A stretch of DNA of 35,350 nucleotides from contig JANMAL010000157.1 of the NCBI GenBank assembly GCA_031359775.1, forward strand, positions 1-35,350, in the 5' to 3' direction. This document shows, piece by piece, positions 5,772 to 11,149 of this stretch. A program made the position numbers and the translations under genes. The notes below the pieces were generated by a model. The model did not search any database and had not been told where the DNA came from. It worked only from the letters and a program-made list of their open reading frames with translations. Source of the DNA: Blastocatellia bacterium. GTDB lineage: Bacteria; Acidobacteriota; Blastocatellia; RBC074. The first letter of the stretch is position 1. Each line of letters starts with the position of its first letter.

Positions 5772-7610
5772 ATGATGTTGAAACGCTTGATTTTATTGCT
5801 TCTGCTCACTGTTGTAAGTTTTGCTACGTTCGCACAAAAGGCAAAATCCAGCAATCCGCAAGCCCAGGAGTTTTACCCGCTCGCGCAAATTCGCAAAGGC
5901 CAACGTGCCACCGCCTACACCGTCTTTGAAGGCAATGAACCCAAGGCGTTTGAGTTGGAAATCCTCGGCGTGCTGGAAGGCTTCAACAGCCCGAAGCAAA
6001 CCGCGATTATCGTCAAGCTGCTCGGCGCTGACACCGACCGCACGGGCGTGTTTGCCGGGATGAGCGGCAGCCCCGTATATATTGACGGCAAGCTGGTGGG
6101 CGCGATTGCCTTCGCGTATCAATTCTCGAAAGAAGCGATTGGTGGCATCACGCCGATTCAGGATATGGTGGACATCTTCGCGCAAAAACAAAGCATTGAA
6201 AGCAAGCCTTCACAGCCGCGCCCGATTTCATTTTCGGAACTTTCCTTCAACGAAACTTCGCGCGAATTTGCCGCCTTCGTCAATCCGCCGCAAGCCCCAA
6301 TGACCAATGTTTCCGGCGTCAATGCGCCTGTCCTGAAGCCGATTGCTACGCCGCTGGCCATCACAGGTGTTGCGCCCGAAGTCATCGAACGGTTCGCGCC
6401 GCAATTCCAGGCAATGGGCTTGCTGCCGGTGGCCGGAGCCGCAGGCGCTGCGCCGATCACGGAACTGAGCAAAGCCAATGGCGACACGCTCAAACCCGGC
6501 TCGACGATTGTTGTGCCGCTGGTGCGCGGTGACCTTTCGTTAGCCGCCGCTGGCACCGTCACGCATCGCGACGGCAATAAAATCTACGCGTTCGGGCATC
6601 CATTCCTCTCTGTTGGCGTCACCGAATGGCCGATGAATGAGGGCGAAGTCGTGATCGTTGTACCCAGCATGGCCAACTCCTTCAAGCTCGCGAAACCTAC
6701 CGCGATGGTTGGCACGATGCGCGGTGATCGCTCGACCGGAATTTACGGCGAACTTGGTACTGCGCCGACGATGATTCCGGTGGAAATCAATTTGAAAACC
6801 AGTCGCGGCGAAAGCAAAAACTACAAATTTGAAATTGTGAATGATCGCTTCCTCACGCCCTTGCTAATGCAAATCACAACGCTCTCAACCTTGACGGGCA
6901 GCGAACGACAGATCGGCGATGCGACCTTACAGTTGCAATCGCGCATCAAGCTCAAAGGCCAGGAAGAAATCAAATTGGAAAATCGCGTTTCATCCGGCAA
7001 CGCCGCAATGGCGCTGACCTTTGCCGCAACGCAGCCAATCAACGCCATTATCAACAGCGGATTCAATGACCTGCGCGTCGAAAAAATCACGCTCGACATC
7101 GTGTCGAGTGACGTGCGCAGCCTCGGCAAGCTCGAAAAACTTTGGGTAGACCGCACCGAAGTCAAACGCGGCGACAAGCTGATGCTGCACGCCTTTGCGC
7201 GCACCGAAGGCGGCGGCGAATATGTCGAACGCATCGAAGTCGAAATCCCCGCCGACGCGCCCCTCGGCCAACTGCAAGTAATGGTCGGTGACGGCGCTGC
7301 CATCCAGGCAGCGGAACCGCGCACCGGCTTTACGCCCAAGACCCTTGACCAACTCGTGCGCGAACTGAATCGCTTGCGCAAAGCGGATCGCTTGTACGTG
7401 CGCCTCTCGCGTTCCGACAACGGAGCCGTCATCAACAACGAAGAGATGCCAAGCCTGCCGCCGTCCGTATTGGCAACGCTCGGTTCGGAGCGGACAACTG
7501 GCGGCTACACCGTGACGCGGTCGGTGACAGTGTTTGAGAAGGAATTAGCGCCCGCGGAGTTTGTGTTGTCGGGATCGAAATCGCTGACGGTGAACGTGGT
7601 GGAGAAGTAA
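5772..7610 (+). CDS. Exported SpoIVB-like peptidase S55 family protein
   Basis: I prefer the ATG at 5772 because AAGAGG lies 8-13 nt upstream and a signal peptide follows (MMLKRLILLLLLTVVSFATFAQ). There is a Ser motif GMSGSPVYIDGKLVGAI (6057-6074 and onward). There is also a His motif GTVTHRDGNKIYAFGHPF (His codon 6597-6599). Both resemble B. subtilis SpoIVB. Confidence 0.8.
   Translation: MMLKRLILLLLLTVVSFATFAQKAKSSNPQAQEFYPLAQIRKGQRATAYTVFEGNEPKAFELEILGVLEGFNSPKQTAIIVKLLGADTDRTGVFAGMSGSPVYIDGKLVGAIAFAYQFSKEAIGGITPIQDMVDIFAQKQSIESKPSQPRPISFSELSFNETSREFAAFVNPPQAPMTNVSGVNAPVLKPIATPLAITGVAPEVIERFAPQFQAMGLLPVAGAAGAAPITELSKANGDTLKPGSTIVVPLVRGDLSLAAAGTVTHRDGNKIYAFGHPFLSVGVTEWPMNEGEVVIVVPSMANSFKLAKPTAMVGTMRGDRSTGIYGELGTAPTMIPVEINLKTSRGESKNYKFEIVNDRFLTPLLMQITTLSTLTGSERQIGDATLQLQSRIKLKGQEEIKLENRVSSGNAAMALTFAATQPINAIINSGFNDLRVEKITLDIVSSDVRSLGKLEKLWVDRTEVKRGDKLMLHAFARTEGGGEYVERIEVEIPADAPLGQLQVMVGDGAAIQAAEPRTGFTPKTLDQLVRELNRLRKADRLYVRLSRSDNGAVINNEEMPSLPPSVLATLGSERTTGGYTVTRSVTVFEKELAPAEFVLSGSKSLTVNVVEK
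7532..7607 (+). repeat. Direct repeat copy 1: functional 3' end of the S55 peptidase gene
   Basis: This 76-nt segment encodes FEKELAPAEFVLSGSKSLTVNVVEK. It recurs at 8287-8362 with about 61/76 identical nucleotides by hand alignment. Confidence 0.8.
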
Positions 7611-7622
7611 GAAGGAGAAGTT

Positions 7623-7859
7623 ATGTTAACGATTAAAGCTACCTACGATGGGTCTTCATTCAAACCATTGCCCACTGAAGTTTTGCCAGAAGTCGAACAC
7701 GAAATTCCTGTTGCTATCGTGTTTCTTGAAGAGGCAACTTGGCCAGTGGATGAGGCAGTGCAACGTGAGGCCGCACGCAAGCTGCGCGAGATTCGTGAAC
7801 GAATGTTGCCGTTAGATATGAGCATCAACGACATGGTGGAGGAAGGTCGTGACCGCTAA
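7623..7859 (+). CDS. Putative type II antitoxin (DUF104/AF2212-like N-terminus), partner of VapC
   Basis: The 78-aa ORF starts 12 nt after the peptidase stop, with GAAGGAG upstream. The N-terminus MLTIKATYDGSSFKPLP…IPVAIVFLEE resembles small antitoxins paired with PIN toxins. It overlaps the downstream PIN gene by 11 nt. Confidence 0.6.
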   Translation: MLTIKATYDGSSFKPLPTEVLPEVEHEIPVAIVFLEEATWPVDEAVQREAARKLREIRERMLPLDMSINDMVEEGRDR

Positions 7860-8283
7860 ACGTTTGGTTTTGGACGCTTGCGTGGCTTTGAAATGGACGC
7901 TCCGTGACGAGACTGAGATCGCTGAAGCTGACGCCTTGCTGCAAGACCTGCTCTCTGGGAAAATTATTTTATTGACGCCAACTTTATTCGACTATGAAGT
8001 CACCAACACACTAAAAATCGCTGTTATGCGAGCAAGATTAACTGAGGCCGACGCGATTACTGCATTGCAGCAATATAAAAACTTCAACATTCAGAGATAC
8101 GATTTTTTTCCGCTTCAGTCGCTCACATTTCAGCTTGCGAATCAGCATAAACGATCTGTTTACGACGCCACTTATCTGGCCTTAGCCCAATCGCAAGGGA
8201 TTGATTTGATTACGGGCGACAAGCGTTTATTCAATGCTGTAAATCTCCCGTTGAGTTGGGTGAAGTGGATTGGCGATTATTAA
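7849..8283 (+). CDS. vapC: PIN-domain toxin, VapC family
   Basis: The 144-aa ORF has a GTG start overlapping the antitoxin. The PIN acidic residues appear in the expected order: LVLDACV, DYEVTN, VYDATYLALA, ITGDKRL. Confidence 0.85.
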   Translation: MTAKRLVLDACVALKWTLRDETEIAEADALLQDLLSGKIILLTPTLFDYEVTNTLKIAVMRARLTEADAITALQQYKNFNIQRYDFFPLQSLTFQLANQHKRSVYDATYLALAQSQGIDLITGDKRLFNAVNLPLSWVKWIGDY

Positions 8284-8286
8284 CCC

Positions 8287-8362
8287 GTTTGAGAAAGAAT
8301 TGGCTCTGGCTGAGTTTGTGTTTTCAGGATCGAAGTCGCTCACAGTGAATATCGCGGAGAAG
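8287..8362 (+). repeat. Direct repeat copy 2: orphaned, diverged relic of the peptidase gene 3' end
   Basis: It translates as FEKELALAEFVFSGSKSLTVNIAEK, matching copy 1 at 21/25 aa. It starts 4 nt after the vapC stop and has no upstream coding context. This frame then reads CSNDYW and stops. Confidence 0.8.
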
Positions 8363-8369
8363 TGCAGCA

Positions 8370-8915
8370 ATGACTATTGGTAAAATTACAATGATTCTTT
8401 TCGCGTTGGTAACCGTCCCGTTGCTGTGTTCGGCGGACGCCCCTCAAACGCAGCCATTCAAAATCATCGTAATCAATAAAACCAATAGTATTGCTAATGG
8501 CCAAACTCGGCAGATAACGTTCCGCCGTATAAATCAACCATTCCTGGCATTGACACATCGTCTAATGCCCGCTGCTTTACAGATTATCTGTGCGCTTCCC
8601 GTGCAACATAGCTGCTACTCTTTCAAACGAAACCAGCATCGAGTGGACTTTGTTTGCCAAGCCATATTACAGCAGGTGAGTGATGCGCTACGTGAATCTC
8701 CTGATATGAAGGTTGTAATTTACGGGTATCGTGCTGAGAACGAAAAGCAAGGCTTAGATTCTTTACGCGCCACATCTGTCCGTCGGCATCTGATGAATAA
8801 CGCATCACGCCCCAAATTGAAATCACAGCAAGTCGTTATTCGAGCAAATGGAATTTCAATGGACGGAAGACAGGTGAAGATGTTTCTAGTTCCTATGGAT
8901 GTAGATTTGCCCTAA
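8370..8915 (+). CDS. Hypothetical exported protein (weak OmpA-C-like C-terminus)
   Basis: The 181-aa ORF lies in a lower-GC stretch and has a hydrophobic N-terminus (MILFALVTVPLLCSADA). The C-terminal segment …DMKVVIYGYRAENEKQGLDSLRATSVRRHL… only loosely resembles OmpA-like domains. No family is confidently recognised. Confidence 0.4.
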   Translation: MTIGKITMILFALVTVPLLCSADAPQTQPFKIIVINKTNSIANGQTRQITFRRINQPFLALTHRLMPAALQIICALPVQHSCYSFKRNQHRVDFVCQAILQQVSDALRESPDMKVVIYGYRAENEKQGLDSLRATSVRRHLMNNASRPKLKSQQVVIRANGISMDGRQVKMFLVPMDVDLP

Positions 8916-8968
8916 TGTAGCTCTCTATTTCAATCGCCTTGAGTCCACGAAAGAACAATCAACCAACA

Positions 8969-11149
8969 ATGCACAAAACAATCACTGCACTTTTCTCCTT
9001 TTTCCTCCTCTCCCTTTTCATCGTCACAGCCTTTGCGGGTGGCCCCGTTTTCTGGCGCATCAGCACGCGTGCCGACATTGAAAAAGGTGATGCGAATGGC
9101 GTCTCCATTGCCGACAACGGCGCGTTGACGCTTGCGCCTGCGTTCACGGAAGTCTATGACACGAAGCAGGCGTATGTGTGGGCTGCCGTCGCCGATAACG
9201 CGGGTAACGTCTATCTCGGCACGGGACACGAAGGGCGCGTCTTTAAAGTGGATGCGGCGGGCAAAGGTTCGCTGCTTTACAAAACCAGCGAACTTGATGT
9301 GATGGCGCTGGCGGTGGATGCGAGCGGTAATGTGTATGCGGGGACTGCGCCCGATGGCAAAGTTTACAAGATCAACGCGCGCGGTGAGGCGACCGTGTTT
9401 TTTGAGCCGAAGACGAAATACATTTGGGCGCTGGCGTTCGATGGGCAAGGGCGTCTGTTGATCGGCACGGGCGACAAAGGTGTCATCTATCGCGTGACGC
9501 CCGATGGCAAAGGCTCCGCGCTGATCCGCACTTCACAGGCGAACATCACTTCGCTGAAAGTCGAAGCCAACGGCAATATTATTGCGGGTACTGACCCCGG
9601 CGGTTTGGTGCTGCGCATTTCGCCCGAAGGCAAAGCGTTCACGTTGTTTGATTCCGCGCAAAAAGAAATCCGTGAAATCGCCCTCGGCAGAGATGGCAGC
9701 ATCTACGCGCTGGCGTTGTCGGAATCGGCGGGCGGCGGTGCGGGCAATGCTGCAACGTCTTCCTCCGCGCCCAGTGCGCCGATGGTCATCAGTGCGGATG
9801 AAGGCGTGACGGTGACGATCAGCGACATTCAGGTTTTGGATTCCGGCTCGTCATCCGGTGCTGCAACAACTGCGGCAAGCTCTGGCACACAAGCCAAAAG
9901 CGCGCTCTATCGCATTGATGCCAATGGTGTGACCGATGTGGTGTGGAGTTCCAATGACGTCACAGCGTTCACGGCAAATGTGGATGACAATGGACGCGCA
10001 CTGATTGGCACGGGACAAAAGGGGCGGATTTACAGCGCACTGCTGCATGGCAAACCATCGTTGCAAATTCAATCTACCGAAGGCCAAAGCTCGCGCCTCG
10101 TCAGAACAAATGCCGGACAGCTTTATGTTGCATCGTCAAATCTCGGCAAGCTTTTCAAACTTGGCAGCAGCACAGTGGCGACGGGTTCCTATACATCATC
10201 GGTGCGCGATGCCAGCACCGTAGCGACGTGGGGCCGCGCGGCCTTTGTGGGCGAAGGCGACATCGAAATGCAAACCCGCAGTGGCAACACCGCGAATCCT
10301 GATTCGACGTGGAGCGATTGGTCTGCCGGAATTAAAACTGCCGATGGCGGTGCAATTGCTAGCCCGCGTGCGCGTTACCTGCAATGGCGCGCGACGCTCA
10401 AAGGTGCGAACACGAAACTGCGTGAAGTCACGGTGTCCTATCTGCCGCGCAACCTCGCGCCACAACTTACGTCGCTCACGCTGCAACCCGCTGGCGTAGC
10501 GATGCAGCCGTTGCCCCAACAACCTGCTGATCCCACTATCGAACAATCGGGCCTTGATCCCGCGACATTTGGACTATCCACGAACTTGCCGCCGCGCAAG
10601 TTCTATCAAAAAGGCGCAATCTCGTTGCAATGGACAGGCGAAGACCGCAACGGCGACAAGCTGGAATATGCGGTCTATTACCGCGCCGCGAATAGCAATG
10701 ATTACTACCCGCTGAAAACAGGCATCACCGAAAACTATTACACGGTGGATGCGAACGGATTGCCCGATGGGCGTTATGTTTTTAAAGTTGTGGTCAGTGA
10801 TGCGCCTGCGAATCCCGGTGCAATGGCGCTCACCGATGAAGAAGAAACTGAGCCGATTGAAGTGGATAACTCCGCGCCGCTGGTGACGGCTGGCGCGCCG
10901 CAGATTTCCGGCAACAACGCCGAGGTTACGTTTCAAACCGAAGACAAAACATCCATCATTCGCCGCGCTGAATATCAATTGGATGGCGGCGAATGGAAGC
11001 CTGTATTTCCGACCGACGGTATTGCCGATGCGCGCCGCGAAGAGTTCAAGGTCGTGGTTACCTTGCCGGATCGCAAGCCACATGTGATTGCCCTGCGCGT
11101 CTTCGATGCGAACGCTAATGTCGGCAGCACGCAAGTGGGTATTAAATGA
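8969..11149 (+). CDS. Exported beta-propeller repeat protein with C-terminal Ig/FN3-like domains
   Basis: I prefer the ATG at 8969, which gives a signal peptide (MHKTITALFSFFLLSLFIVTAFA). Blade motifs recur about every 40 aa: NVYLGTGHEGRVFKVDAAGK, NVYAGTAPDGKVYKINARGE, RLLIGTGDKGVIYRVTPDGK, NIIAGTDPGGLVLRISPEGK. The C-terminus has beta-sandwich-like segments (KLEYAVYYRAANSNDYYPL…GRYVFKVVVSD). Confidence 0.8.
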   Translation: MHKTITALFSFFLLSLFIVTAFAGGPVFWRISTRADIEKGDANGVSIADNGALTLAPAFTEVYDTKQAYVWAAVADNAGNVYLGTGHEGRVFKVDAAGKGSLLYKTSELDVMALAVDASGNVYAGTAPDGKVYKINARGEATVFFEPKTKYIWALAFDGQGRLLIGTGDKGVIYRVTPDGKGSALIRTSQANITSLKVEANGNIIAGTDPGGLVLRISPEGKAFTLFDSAQKEIREIALGRDGSIYALALSESAGGGAGNAATSSSAPSAPMVISADEGVTVTISDIQVLDSGSSSGAATTAASSGTQAKSALYRIDANGVTDVVWSSNDVTAFTANVDDNGRALIGTGQKGRIYSALLHGKPSLQIQSTEGQSSRLVRTNAGQLYVASSNLGKLFKLGSSTVATGSYTSSVRDASTVATWGRAAFVGEGDIEMQTRSGNTANPDSTWSDWSAGIKTADGGAIASPRARYLQWRATLKGANTKLREVTVSYLPRNLAPQLTSLTLQPAGVAMQPLPQQPADPTIEQSGLDPATFGLSTNLPPRKFYQKGAISLQWTGEDRNGDKLEYAVYYRAANSNDYYPLKTGITENYYTVDANGLPDGRYVFKVVVSDAPANPGAMALTDEEETEPIEVDNSAPLVTAGAPQISGNNAEVTFQTEDKTSIIRRAEYQLDGGEWKPVFPTDGIADARREEFKVVVTLPDRKPHVIALRVFDANANVGSTQVGIK

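What the first reader, a model, noticed from the sequence alone, without database searches (positions are those of the whole stretch)
7532..8362. vapBC cassette bracketed by a diverged 76-nt duplication of the S55 peptidase gene's 3' end
Seen in sequence: the last 25 sense codons of the peptidase gene (7532-7607, FEKELAPAEFVLSGSKSLTVNVVEK) recur at 8287-8362. The second copy starts 4 nt after the vapC stop and reads FEKELALAEFVFSGSKSLTVNIAEK. By hand alignment the copies match at about 61/76 nt and 21/25 aa. Most differences are silent or conservative, meaning the second copy diverged while still coding somewhere. The second copy has no upstream reading frame. Between the copies lie only the antitoxin and PIN toxin, and GC content drops there.

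Inference: the TA module was acquired at the 3' end of this gene together with a foreign, homologous replacement tail. This is the same logic as islands that integrate into and restore the 3' ends of tRNA or protein genes. Alternatively it arrived by homologous recombination with a relative that already carried vapBC here. The ancestral tail was left orphaned. No integrase or transposase is present.
Basis: partly seen in the sequence, partly recalled or inferred. Interest (0 to 1): 0.6.

Follow-up and report, generated by a model that had tools for sequence, protein, structure and literature searches.

The report
Orphan gene tail beside toxin-antitoxin cassette
A soil acidobacterium carries a decaying spare copy of the last 25 codons of a peptidase gene just after a VapBC toxin-antitoxin pair; it is an old recombination scar at a site where small gene cassettes are swapped among relatives, a footprint already known for other "addiction" genes.

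Summary
Window 7532-7608 and 8287-8363 align without gaps at 62/77 nt and 21/25 aa, far above background. Two independent per-run assemblies carry the same structure.

Copy 1 is the working gene end, identical in protein to seven orthologues. Copy 2 is non-coding: it has four private amino-acid changes, no stop codon and no upstream frame.

This is not a recent acquisition. The same joint (last codon of vapC fused to peptidase position -79) occurs in at least six Blastocatellia lineages. vapBC co-diverges with the peptidase gene. The cassette downstream of copy 2 differs between lineages: OmpA-like, a membrane-protein pair, or PemIK. One relative (G005) has the clean "empty" form.

No integrase lies on this contig. 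Most likely this is a scar of host recombination that placed two alternative cassette arrangements in series. Copy 2 was later refreshed from working tails in other lineages, but here it is decaying.

Similar tail duplications flank other small cargo in this genome. Published parallels are "insertion with long target duplication" of restriction-modification genes and e14 in icd. This scan has already reported the same footprint on other DNA.

Verdict: a new member of a known kind, of moderate interest.

The parts
5772..7610 (+). S55 (SpoIVB-like) secreted peptidase gene, the host gene whose 3' end is duplicated
   Evidence: Pfam PF05580, E=2.9e-09. Single-copy orthologue in 39 of 41 relatives. 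Synteny mobA-like, peptidase, [variable region], beta-propeller is conserved across the family.
7533..7610 (+). Copy 1 (c1): the working last 25 codons plus the TAA stop
   Evidence: Amino-acid sequence identical to orthologues in G003-G008-type loci L003-L008. It differs from sister genome G001 at 9/75 nt (pS 0.45), against pS 0.15 for the rest of the gene.
7611..7622 (+). 12-nt spacer with a GAAGGAG ribosome-binding site for vapB
   Evidence: Read directly from the sequence. No sigma-70-like promoter or terminator was found in 7300-9100.
7623..7859 (+). vapB-like antitoxin gene (78 aa)
   Evidence: Overlaps vapC by 11 nt. Only a weak AF2212-like match, E=0.11, below the cut-off. pN/pS about 0.12 against G001-type.
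7849..8283 (+). vapC PIN-domain toxin gene (144 aa; D9, E50, D106, D124)
   Evidence: Pfam PF01850, E=2.3e-11. pS 0.20 and pN 0.036 against G001-type; pS 0.43 and pN 0.066 against L082.
8278..8287 (+). Recombination joint: the last vapC codon(s) fused to peptidase position about -79
   Evidence: The same joint, TATCAAC(C/T)(C/G/T)(G/A)TTTGAG, occurs in G000, G001-type, L082, L083, L085/L087 and G006. In clade B, vapC ends ...TATCAATAA and is followed directly by the propeller gene.
8288..8365 (+). Copy 2 (c2): orphan, non-coding duplicate of the last 25 codons; the stop is replaced by TGC
   Evidence: 60/75 nt and 21/25 aa to c1. It has four private amino-acid changes. It differs from the clade-A consensus tail at 9 nt plus the stop, the most decayed of the c2 copies seen.
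8370..8915 (+). Distal cassette: low-GC OmpA-like ORF (181 aa) linked to c2
   Evidence: Weak OmpA match, E=1.6e-05, below the cut-off. Homologues were found only directly downstream of c2 in G001-type (L081) and L082. In L082 its ATG overlaps the c2 stop (TGATG).
8969..11149 (+). Conserved beta-propeller gene, the right border of the variable site
   Evidence: tblastn 75-95% identity in all relatives. In other genera it lies 75-180 nt after the peptidase stop.

Best explanation
Copy 2 is a non-coding scar of host-mediated recombination at a cassette hotspot between the peptidase and beta-propeller genes. No dedicated recombinase is involved.

Origin (inferred). In an ancestor of this clade of Blastocatellia, two alternative versions of the locus were joined in series. 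In one version vapBC directly follows the peptidase gene. In the other, a different cassette directly follows it. The join was a single illegitimate joint: the last codon of vapC fused to position about -79 of the peptidase gene. The rest of the exchange ran through homology in the flanking conserved genes.

Two routes give the same product, and I cannot separate them (about 50:50):
- (a) Campbell-type single crossover. A circularised [tail + vapBC] fragment crosses into the tail of a genome that has peptidase-cassette. Here c1 + vapBC is the incoming piece.
- (b) Homology-facilitated illegitimate recombination anchored in the propeller gene. This brings in [79 nt of tail + cassette] behind a resident vapBC. 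Here c2 + cassette is the incoming piece.

Later history (inferred from shown patterns). c2 stayed linked to the downstream cassette and kept a gene-like sequence in several lineages. The likely reason is repeated overwriting from working tails, either by exchange of the distal cassette with relatives (c2 and the propeller gene serving as homology arms) or by gene conversion.

Recombination between c1 and c2 would delete vapBC cleanly. The toxin-antitoxin pair should penalise that loss. In the window's genome the two copies have drifted to 81% identity, exchange has stopped, and c2 is decaying.

Shown: the repeat, the shared joint, vertical co-divergence of vapBC, the varying distal cassettes, and the filled/empty pair. 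Inferred: the recombination route and the stabilising role of the TA pair.
For: - Repeat significance and orphan status.
- Independent assemblies carry the structure.
- The site is variable. The empty site is 75-180 nt in other genera and 149 nt in G011. Different TA cassettes occupy it in the genus: vapBC, DUF433/DUF5615, another PIN pair, PemIK.
- The same vapC|tail joint is found in G000, G001-type (L081), L082, L083/L084, L085/L087 and, as a remnant, G006.
- vapBC nucleotide identities mirror those of the peptidase body: G000-G001 94/95, G000-L083 87/83, L083-L085 88/87. vapBC is under purifying selection.
- Three unrelated cassettes follow c2.
- L085 c2 is 3/75 nt from the working tail of G005. 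G005 has the same membrane-protein pair directly after its peptidase gene and no vapBC. Peptidase body identity is 87% and propeller 92%.
- c2 copies differ from the clade consensus by only 2, 4, 6 and 9 nt, mostly at synonymous-type positions. Third-position diversity in the gene is 0.335.
- No tyrosine recombinase lies on C719 or on the other contigs with tail duplications.
- Tail duplications flank other small cargo in the genus. At the DUF1501 locus there are 154 nt in G000 and 144 nt around another PIN pair in G004. C513 has 70 nt. C419 has about 45 nt around a BrnT toxin gene.
- Experimental precedent: in E. coli, DNA with one-sided homology mostly integrates by single crossover of a recircularised molecule, duplicating 109-950 bp of the homologous gene end. 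HFIR gives insertion plus deletion (PMC3240628).
- Published pattern: 'insertion with long target duplication' without mobility genes (PMC2853133).
Against: - No donor or circular intermediate was seen.
- Microhomology at the joint cannot be established, because 3-4 filler bases vary between lineages.
- In all four well-resolved cases the joint lies within about 10-30 nt of the end of the last proximal cargo gene. That is tighter than random breakpoints predict and is only partly explained by selection.
- No Ku homologue was found, so end-joining circularisation has no obvious enzyme.
- Natural competence of these uncultured bacteria is unknown.
- c2 being closer to the clade consensus than to its own c1 could also reflect an unknown functional constraint.
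- A trans-acting recombinase encoded elsewhere cannot be excluded. Six or seven tyrosine recombinase genes exist in the genome.
Confidence: 0.68

Rival explanations
1. Site-specific integration of a mini-island, as with e14 or phage 21 in icd. A recombinase, now lost or acting in trans, inserted a vapBC element into an att site in the peptidase 3' end. The element carried its own replacement tail and displaced the native tail to the far side.
For: The topology is identical to icd / e14 / icdC (PMC13626634). The homology ends at the stop codon. A filled/empty pair has precise borders (L085 against G005). The same joint precedes three different downstream contexts.
Against: No integrase or other recombinase lies in the 0.75-kb insert, the 35-kb contig, or the other contigs with tail duplications. 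The longest exact match between the copies is 11 nt, so there is no identical core. vapBC co-diverges with the host gene rather than behaving as a recently mobile unit. vapBC sits at the same site without any repeat in G012 and G003. The vapBC DNA occurs nowhere else in 14 genus genomes.
Confidence: 0.1
2. Copy 2 is retained because it works. It would carry expression signals for the downstream cassette (a promoter, an operator bound by VapB, or a short coupling ORF) that normally lie inside the peptidase 3' end. This does not exclude a recombinational origin.
For: In 'empty' relatives the downstream cassettes start 0-30 nt after, or overlapping, the peptidase stop: TAATG in G010/G002 and TGATG at c2 in L082. 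c2 persists in at least five lineages and changes less than neutral expectation. Only 12 nt separate the peptidase stop from vapB, so vapBC control sequences must overlap c1.
Against: No sigma-70-like promoter or terminator was detected and there is no Rfam match. c2 is mostly deleted in G006 and probably in L088. It carries internal deletions in L082 and is decaying in G000. The substitutions in c2 follow a codon-synonymous pattern, which fits a copy from a working gene better than a DNA motif.
Confidence: 0.15
3. Copy 2 is the last remnant of a tandemly duplicated second peptidase gene that has otherwise been deleted.
For: None beyond the similarity itself.
Against: The peptidase is single-copy in the relatives searched, apart from genes split across contigs. 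The c2 left border is the same (-79) in six lineages and abuts vapC directly. No similarity extends upstream of c2 (paralogy score 22).
Confidence: 0.03
4. Assembly artefact: a chimeric join of two strain variants in a fragmented MAG.
For: The genome is a MAG of 1138 contigs with 6.9% contamination.
Against: Two independent per-run assemblies reproduce the whole structure. Related lineages from other studies and assemblers carry the same joint, on contigs of 94, 187 and 558 kb.
Confidence: 0.01

Closest known systems
Insertion with long target duplication of restriction-modification gene complexes (Nobusato et al. 2000; Furuta et al. 2010, PMC2853133)
   Same: A small 'addiction' gene unit lies between direct repeats longer than 30 bp. 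The repeats correspond to a single-copy sequence in relatives. They often overlap a gene's 3' end. No transposase or integrase is in the insert, and the insert is often lower in GC.
   Different: The cargo here is a type II toxin-antitoxin pair, not an R-M system. The repeat is old and diverged (81%). It is shared by several species-level lineages and is linked to a changing second cassette.
e14 and lambdoid phage 21 integrated in the 3' end of icd, leaving the icdC pseudogene (Hill et al. 1989; PMC13626634)
   Same: The gene keeps a working tail next to the insert. A diverged C-terminal fragment sits on the far side. Differences are mostly synonymous. Recombination between the two copies restores a chimeric working gene.
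   Different: e14 is a 15-kb prophage with its own integrase and a defined att core. Here the insert is 0.75 kb with no recombinase and no identical core.
Single-crossover (Campbell-type) integration and homology-facilitated illegitimate recombination (PMC3240628)
   Same: DNA with homology on one side enters the chromosome through host recombination. Single crossover of a recircularised molecule duplicates 109-950 bp of the homologous gene end. HFIR gives insertion plus a small deletion at a non-homologous joint.
   Different: Those are laboratory events in E. coli and in competent species. Here the process is only inferred from comparative sequence, in uncultured Blastocatellia.
VapBC type II toxin-antitoxin modules
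   Same: A PIN-domain toxin with the four acidic residues. A small upstream overlapping antitoxin gene. Both are under purifying selection.
   Different: The antitoxin matches no curated family above threshold (AF2212-like, E=0.11). Activity is untested.

Membership tests
VapBC type II toxin-antitoxin | Toxin with a PIN domain and conserved acidic active-site residues | tested here: met
   PF01850, E=2.3e-11, 44.8 bits against a cut-off of 23.6. D9, E50, D106 and D124 were read from the translation.
VapBC type II toxin-antitoxin | Small antitoxin gene immediately upstream, overlapping or abutting the toxin gene | tested here: met
   A 78-aa ORF at 7623-7859 overlaps vapC by 11 nt. The pair is conserved in at least 8 lineages. 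The family assignment of the antitoxin is weak.
VapBC type II toxin-antitoxin | The toxin arrests growth and the antitoxin neutralises it | not testable with these tools
   Needs expression assays.
Integrase-mediated island in a gene 3' end (e14/icd type) | Site-specific recombinase encoded by the element | tested here: not met
   Only vapB and vapC lie between the copies. No PF00589 match on contig C719.
Integrase-mediated island in a gene 3' end (e14/icd type) | Identical core (att) sequence at both ends | tested here: not met
   The longest exact match is 11 nt, and overall identity is 62/77. In L083 the copies are 75/77 identical, so an original core cannot be excluded.
Integrase-mediated island in a gene 3' end (e14/icd type) | A replacement gene tail next to the insert and an orphan tail on the far side | tested here: met
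Insertion with long target duplication (Nobusato/Furuta) | Direct repeat longer than 30 bp flanking the insert, single copy in genomes without the insert | tested here: met
   The repeat is 77 nt. G005, G010, G002 and G011 have one tail only.
Insertion with long target duplication (Nobusato/Furuta) | No mobility genes in or beside the insert; insert shorter than 20 kb | tested here: met
   The insert is 0.75 kb and holds vapBC only.
Insertion with long target duplication (Nobusato/Furuta) | Cargo is a restriction-modification complex | tested here: not met
   The cargo is a toxin-antitoxin pair. It is the same logic with a different addiction module.
Homology-facilitated illegitimate recombination | 3-10 bp microhomology at the illegitimate joint and a deletion on the recipient side | tested here: inconclusive
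   The joint has 3-4 variable filler bases and at most 1-2 nt shared with the peptidase sequence. The vapC stop and the spacer to the propeller gene are missing relative to clade B.

The most novel reading that the evidence does not exclude
Orphan gene tails may act as portable homology arms. Each cassette that abuts a conserved gene's stop codon can be stacked behind, or swapped with, another cassette by host recombination alone. This would build integron-like arrays (gene tail, cassette, orphan tail, cassette) without any integrase. Toxin-antitoxin cargo would be over-represented because it penalises the reverse, deleting, recombination between the two tails. Selection against that deletion would also speed up sequence divergence of both copies. 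That could explain the excess synonymous change in copy 1 here (pS 0.45 against 0.15 gene-wide).
Probability: 0.25. Interest if true: 0.6.

Novelty: new member of a known kind. Interest (0 to 1): 0.35.

Why it matters
How small toxin-antitoxin and defence cassettes that lack any mobility gene enter and move between chromosomes is still poorly documented. This locus gives an unusually complete comparative series:
- empty site;
- vapBC alone;
- vapBC plus an orphan tail plus three different second cassettes;
- truncated remnants;
- a clean filled/empty pair.

The series shows that the 3' end of a conserved gene can serve as a recombination junction over long periods. It extends the 'long target duplication' footprint, described for restriction-modification genes, to TA modules in Acidobacteriota. 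It adds to the cases this scan has already found in CPR bacteria and DPANN archaea. It does not reveal a new kind of element.

Tried and rejected
- Metagenome scans found nothing useful. A scan with the peptidase C-terminus gave no relatives. A degenerate DNA pattern for the tail gave one chance match, L040.
- No donor of the G004 cargo was found in 61 family genomes.
- No Ku homologue was found, so I dropped NHEJ-based circularisation as a specific claim.
- I first counted the perfect 30-nt tail repeat in G004 as an independent second event. Its downstream context matches L085, and a vapB remnant lies upstream. It is therefore more likely a truncated derivative of the same ancestral c2.
- I tested whether the tail is unusually conserved at synonymous sites, as a recombination hotspot signature. 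It is not: third-position diversity is 0.335 against a mean of 0.374, 6th lowest of 22 windows.
This was corrected.
- A promoter/terminator scan and an Rfam scan of 7300-9100 were empty.
- The Microcystis MaOC1 TA module flanked by 152-bp repeats (PMC7935541) is intergenic rather than a gene-tail duplication, so it is only a loose parallel.
- A literature search on HFIR plus duplication returned mostly irrelevant papers.
Full report
**1. Observation**

The last 25 sense codons of the S55 peptidase gene recur after vapC. The working copy (c1) is at 7533-7607, with stop codon TAA at 7608-7610. The second copy (c2) is at 8288-8362, 4 nt after the vapC stop.

The best local alignment is ungapped, 7532-7608 against 8287-8363, at 62/77 nt. 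Its score is 79. The maximum for copy 1 against 454 other stretches of the window on either strand is 25. In frame the match is 60/75 nt and 21/25 aa.

c2 has no upstream frame, and TGC stands in place of the stop. Between the copies lie only two genes:
- a 78-aa antitoxin-like ORF at 7623-7859;
- a PIN-domain VapC gene at 7849-8283 (PF01850, E=2.3e-11).

GC falls from about 0.62 to 0.42-0.52. The low-GC stretch continues to about 8960, through an OmpA-like ORF at 8370-8915.

Two independent per-run assemblies (Logan contigs of SRR20217206 and SRR20217216) contain the whole arrangement at 99.6% and 99.9% identity. The structure is therefore real.

**2. Which copy is the working one**

c1 is identical in protein to the tails of seven same-genus orthologues.

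c2 carries four private amino-acid changes (P>L, L>F, V>I, V>A) and has lost its stop. Nei-Gojobori counts give:
- pN/pS of 0.13 between c1 and c2.
- 4.5 non-synonymous differences between c2 and the nearest working tail (G010). Pairs of working tails show 0-1.

c2 is therefore an orphan that is now decaying.

**3. The locus in relatives**

The organisms are uncultured Blastocatellia (Acidobacteriota) MAGs. The order mobA-like, peptidase, beta-propeller is conserved across the family. In other genera the peptidase and propeller genes are 75-180 nt apart. No relative has a second peptidase gene.

Within the genus, the gap holds different small cassettes:

| Content of the gap | Genomes |
|---|---|
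| vapBC | G000, G001, G006, G012, G003 |
| DUF433/DUF5615 | G010, G002, G008 |
| A different PIN pair with a chimeric antitoxin | G004 |
| A membrane-protein pair | G005 |
| Nothing (149 nt) | G011 |

G008 keeps the last ~20 nt of vapC, and G004 keeps the C-terminal part of vapB. vapBC is therefore old at this site.

**4. The joint is shared and old**

Contigs found through VapC, VapB and OmpA-like homologues add further lineages. The same joint occurs in all of the following: the last vapC codon, then 3-4 variable bases, then peptidase position about -79.

| Lineage | c2 state | What follows c2 |
|---|---|---|
| G000 | decayed, stop lost | OmpA-like ORF |
| G001-type (L081) | stop kept; reads FERELAPAEFVLSGWKSLTVNVVEK* | OmpA-like ORF |
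| L082 | 12-nt and 1-nt deletions; stop TGA overlaps the ATG of the next gene | OmpA-like ORF |
| L083/L084 | 75/77 identical to its own c1 | PemI-like + PemK pair |
| L085/L087 | 72/79 identical to its own c1 | 123-aa + 114-aa membrane-protein pair |
| G006 | ~14-18 nt remnant | (rest deleted) |

In clade B (G012, G003), vapC ends ...TATCAATAA and is followed directly by the propeller gene, with no tail copy.

vapBC nucleotide identities track those of the peptidase body:

| Pair | vapBC | Peptidase body |
|---|---|---|
| G000-G001 | 94% | 95% |
| G000-L083 | 87% | 83% |
| L083-L085 | 88% | 87% |

vapBC is under purifying selection, with pN/pS of about 0.12-0.18. vapBC has therefore been inherited together with the peptidase gene since before these lineages split (peptidase pS about 0.45). 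It is not a recent arrival in this genome.

**5. Behaviour of c2**

c2 stays with the downstream cassette. L085 c2 is 3/75 nt from the working tail of G005. G005 carries the same membrane-protein pair directly after its peptidase gene and has no vapBC. The two loci are also each other's closest relatives in the peptidase body (87%) and the propeller gene (92%). They form a clean filled/empty pair.

Counted from the clade-A consensus tail, the c2 copies have changed at 2 (L083), 4 (L085), 6 (G001-type) and 9 positions plus the stop (G000). The changes are mostly synonymous-type. With third-position diversity of 0.335 in the gene, a neutrally evolving relic as old as the joint should be much more diverged.

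c2 must therefore have been refreshed from working tails. This could happen by gene conversion. It could also happen by exchange of the distal cassette with relatives whose cassette abuts the peptidase stop, with c2 and the propeller gene acting as homology arms. In G000 neither process is visible any more: c1 and c2 share no derived changes, and c2 is the most decayed copy.

c1 of G000 differs from c1 of G001 at 9/75 nt (pS 0.45), against pS 0.15 for the rest of the gene. This points to a recombination import or accelerated change in the tail.

The tail is not a general outlier in synonymous diversity.

**6. Mechanism**

No tyrosine recombinase lies on this contig or on the other contigs with tail duplications. 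The copies share no identical core. The vapBC DNA occurs nowhere else in the genus. A dedicated integrating element is therefore unlikely, at about 0.1.

Two host-recombination routes yield the observed product:
- **(a) Single crossover.** A circularised [tail + vapBC] fragment crosses into the tail of a peptidase-cassette genome. In E. coli this was the main outcome for DNA with one-sided homology. It duplicated 109-950 bp of the homologous gene end (56 of 60 clones; PMC3240628).
- **(b) Homology-facilitated illegitimate recombination.** The exchange is anchored in the propeller gene. It brings [79 nt of tail + cassette] behind a resident vapBC, with a small deletion of the vapC stop and spacer.

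Route (b) is more parsimonious. vapBC without c2 exists in clade B, and vapBC is vertically inherited in clade A. Route (a) explains the reversible filled/empty pair and has the experimental precedent. I cannot separate them.

Recombination between c1 and c2 would delete vapBC precisely. A toxin-antitoxin pair should penalise that loss. This would explain, by inference, why such cargo is often seen inside this footprint.

One feature is unexplained. In all well-resolved cases, the joint lies within about 10-30 nt of the end of the last proximal cargo gene.

**7. Generality**

A genome-wide scan of G000 found further isolated duplications of gene tails that end at the stop codon:

| Contig | Host gene | Repeat | Cargo between the copies |
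|---|---|---|---|
| C844 | DUF1501 gene | 154 nt, 139/154 | REP-like element plus a 199-aa ORF |
| C513 | 394-aa gene | 70 nt, 68/70 | 427-aa ORF |
| C419 | phosphatase-like gene | about 45 nt | BrnT toxin gene (PF04365, E=3.5e-22) |

At the DUF1501 locus, G004 has a 144-nt tail copy behind a DUF2281-PIN pair. G002 and G005 have the 199-aa ORF directly after the gene, with no second tail detected in G002.

Tail-downstream hits are not more numerous overall than control classes (36 against 23-43), because most hits are paralogues. I therefore make no claim of enrichment.

**8. Comparison with what is known**

The footprint matches 'insertion with long target duplication' described for restriction-modification gene complexes. 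There, repeats of 46-420 bp often overlap gene 3' ends, no mobility genes are present, and the mechanism is unknown (PMC2853133).

Topologically it matches e14 in icd with the icdC pseudogene (PMC13626634).

Earlier notes of this scan describe the same footprint around TA cassettes in other genomes. Examples are tails of gyrB and alaS, of a radical SAM gene and of giant genes, in CPR bacteria, Omnitrophota and DPANN archaea. Those notes gave me the Nobusato/Furuta lead, which I checked in the paper. My reading of two arrangements stacked in series was reached from the data above and agrees with several of those notes.

**9. Verdict**

The orphan tail, the absence of an integrase and recombination with relatives all hold. 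The idea of a recent acquisition of the TA module with a foreign tail does not hold as stated.

This is a new member of a known kind. Its value is the unusually rich comparative series at one locus. Interest: 0.35.

Noticed in passing
G000 contig C844 (locus L041) 8076-8200: A ~100-nt palindromic REP/MITE-like element lies right after the DUF1501 stop codon. It matches on both strands at dozens of places in every genome of the genus.
   Followed up: no
L041 (G000:C844) 7926-8079 and 8812-8965: A second gene-tail duplication in the same genome. The last 154 nt of a DUF1501 gene (139/154 identical, stop kept) flank a REP element and a 199-aa ORF with no family match and a D...ExK-like motif. G004 has a 144-nt tail copy behind a DUF2281-PIN pair at the same locus.
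   Followed up: partly
G000 contigs C513 (72-141 / 1562-1631), C419 (about +657 after the gene at 25-855), C999: Further tail duplications. C513 has 70 nt (68/70) around a 427-aa ORF. C419 has about 45 nt around a BrnT toxin gene in a low-GC (0.45) insert. C999 has a 166-nt diverged C-terminal fragment of a CHAT-like gene 1.2 kb downstream.
   Followed up: partly
window 7533-7607 compared with G001 (L002/L068): The working tail differs from that of the sister genome at 9/75 nt (pS 0.45). The rest of the gene shows pS 0.15. This is a local excess of synonymous change or a small recombination import.
   Followed up: partly
L004/L005 (G010, G002) just after the peptidase stop; L082 around position 450: Downstream cassette genes start on the peptidase stop codon. 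The pattern is TAATG for DUF433 in G010/G002 and TGATG for the OmpA-like gene at c2 in L082. This suggests translational coupling of cassettes to the peptidase gene.
   Followed up: no
L003 (G006), between the peptidase and propeller genes: G006 vapBC is only 64-66% identical to every other allele, although its flanks are 85-90% identical. Only its last ~110 nt resemble the clade-A type (81-83%). vapC is split into two ORFs. It looks like an allele replacement followed by decay.
   Followed up: partly
L006/L073 (G004), first ORF after the peptidase stop: An 81-aa chimeric antitoxin-like ORF. Its N-terminal part resembles the C-terminus of the PemI-like antitoxin seen in L083. Its C-terminal part resembles VapB residues 46-78. 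It is followed by an unrelated PIN toxin with a downstream antitoxin.
   Followed up: no
window 8370-8915: A low-GC OmpA-like ORF with a signal-peptide-like start. Across 5.8 billion proteins, only one 64%-identical relative turned up, apart from a 99%-identical protein on a 1910-nt contig (the length of L079). A further homologue was seen by DNA in L081. All sit directly downstream of the orphan tail.
   Followed up: partly
L011/L076 (G003), between the peptidase stop and vapB: A 223-aa ORF in a 0.39-GC stretch is inserted between the peptidase gene and vapBC. This is another layer of cassette stacking on the proximal side.
   Followed up: no
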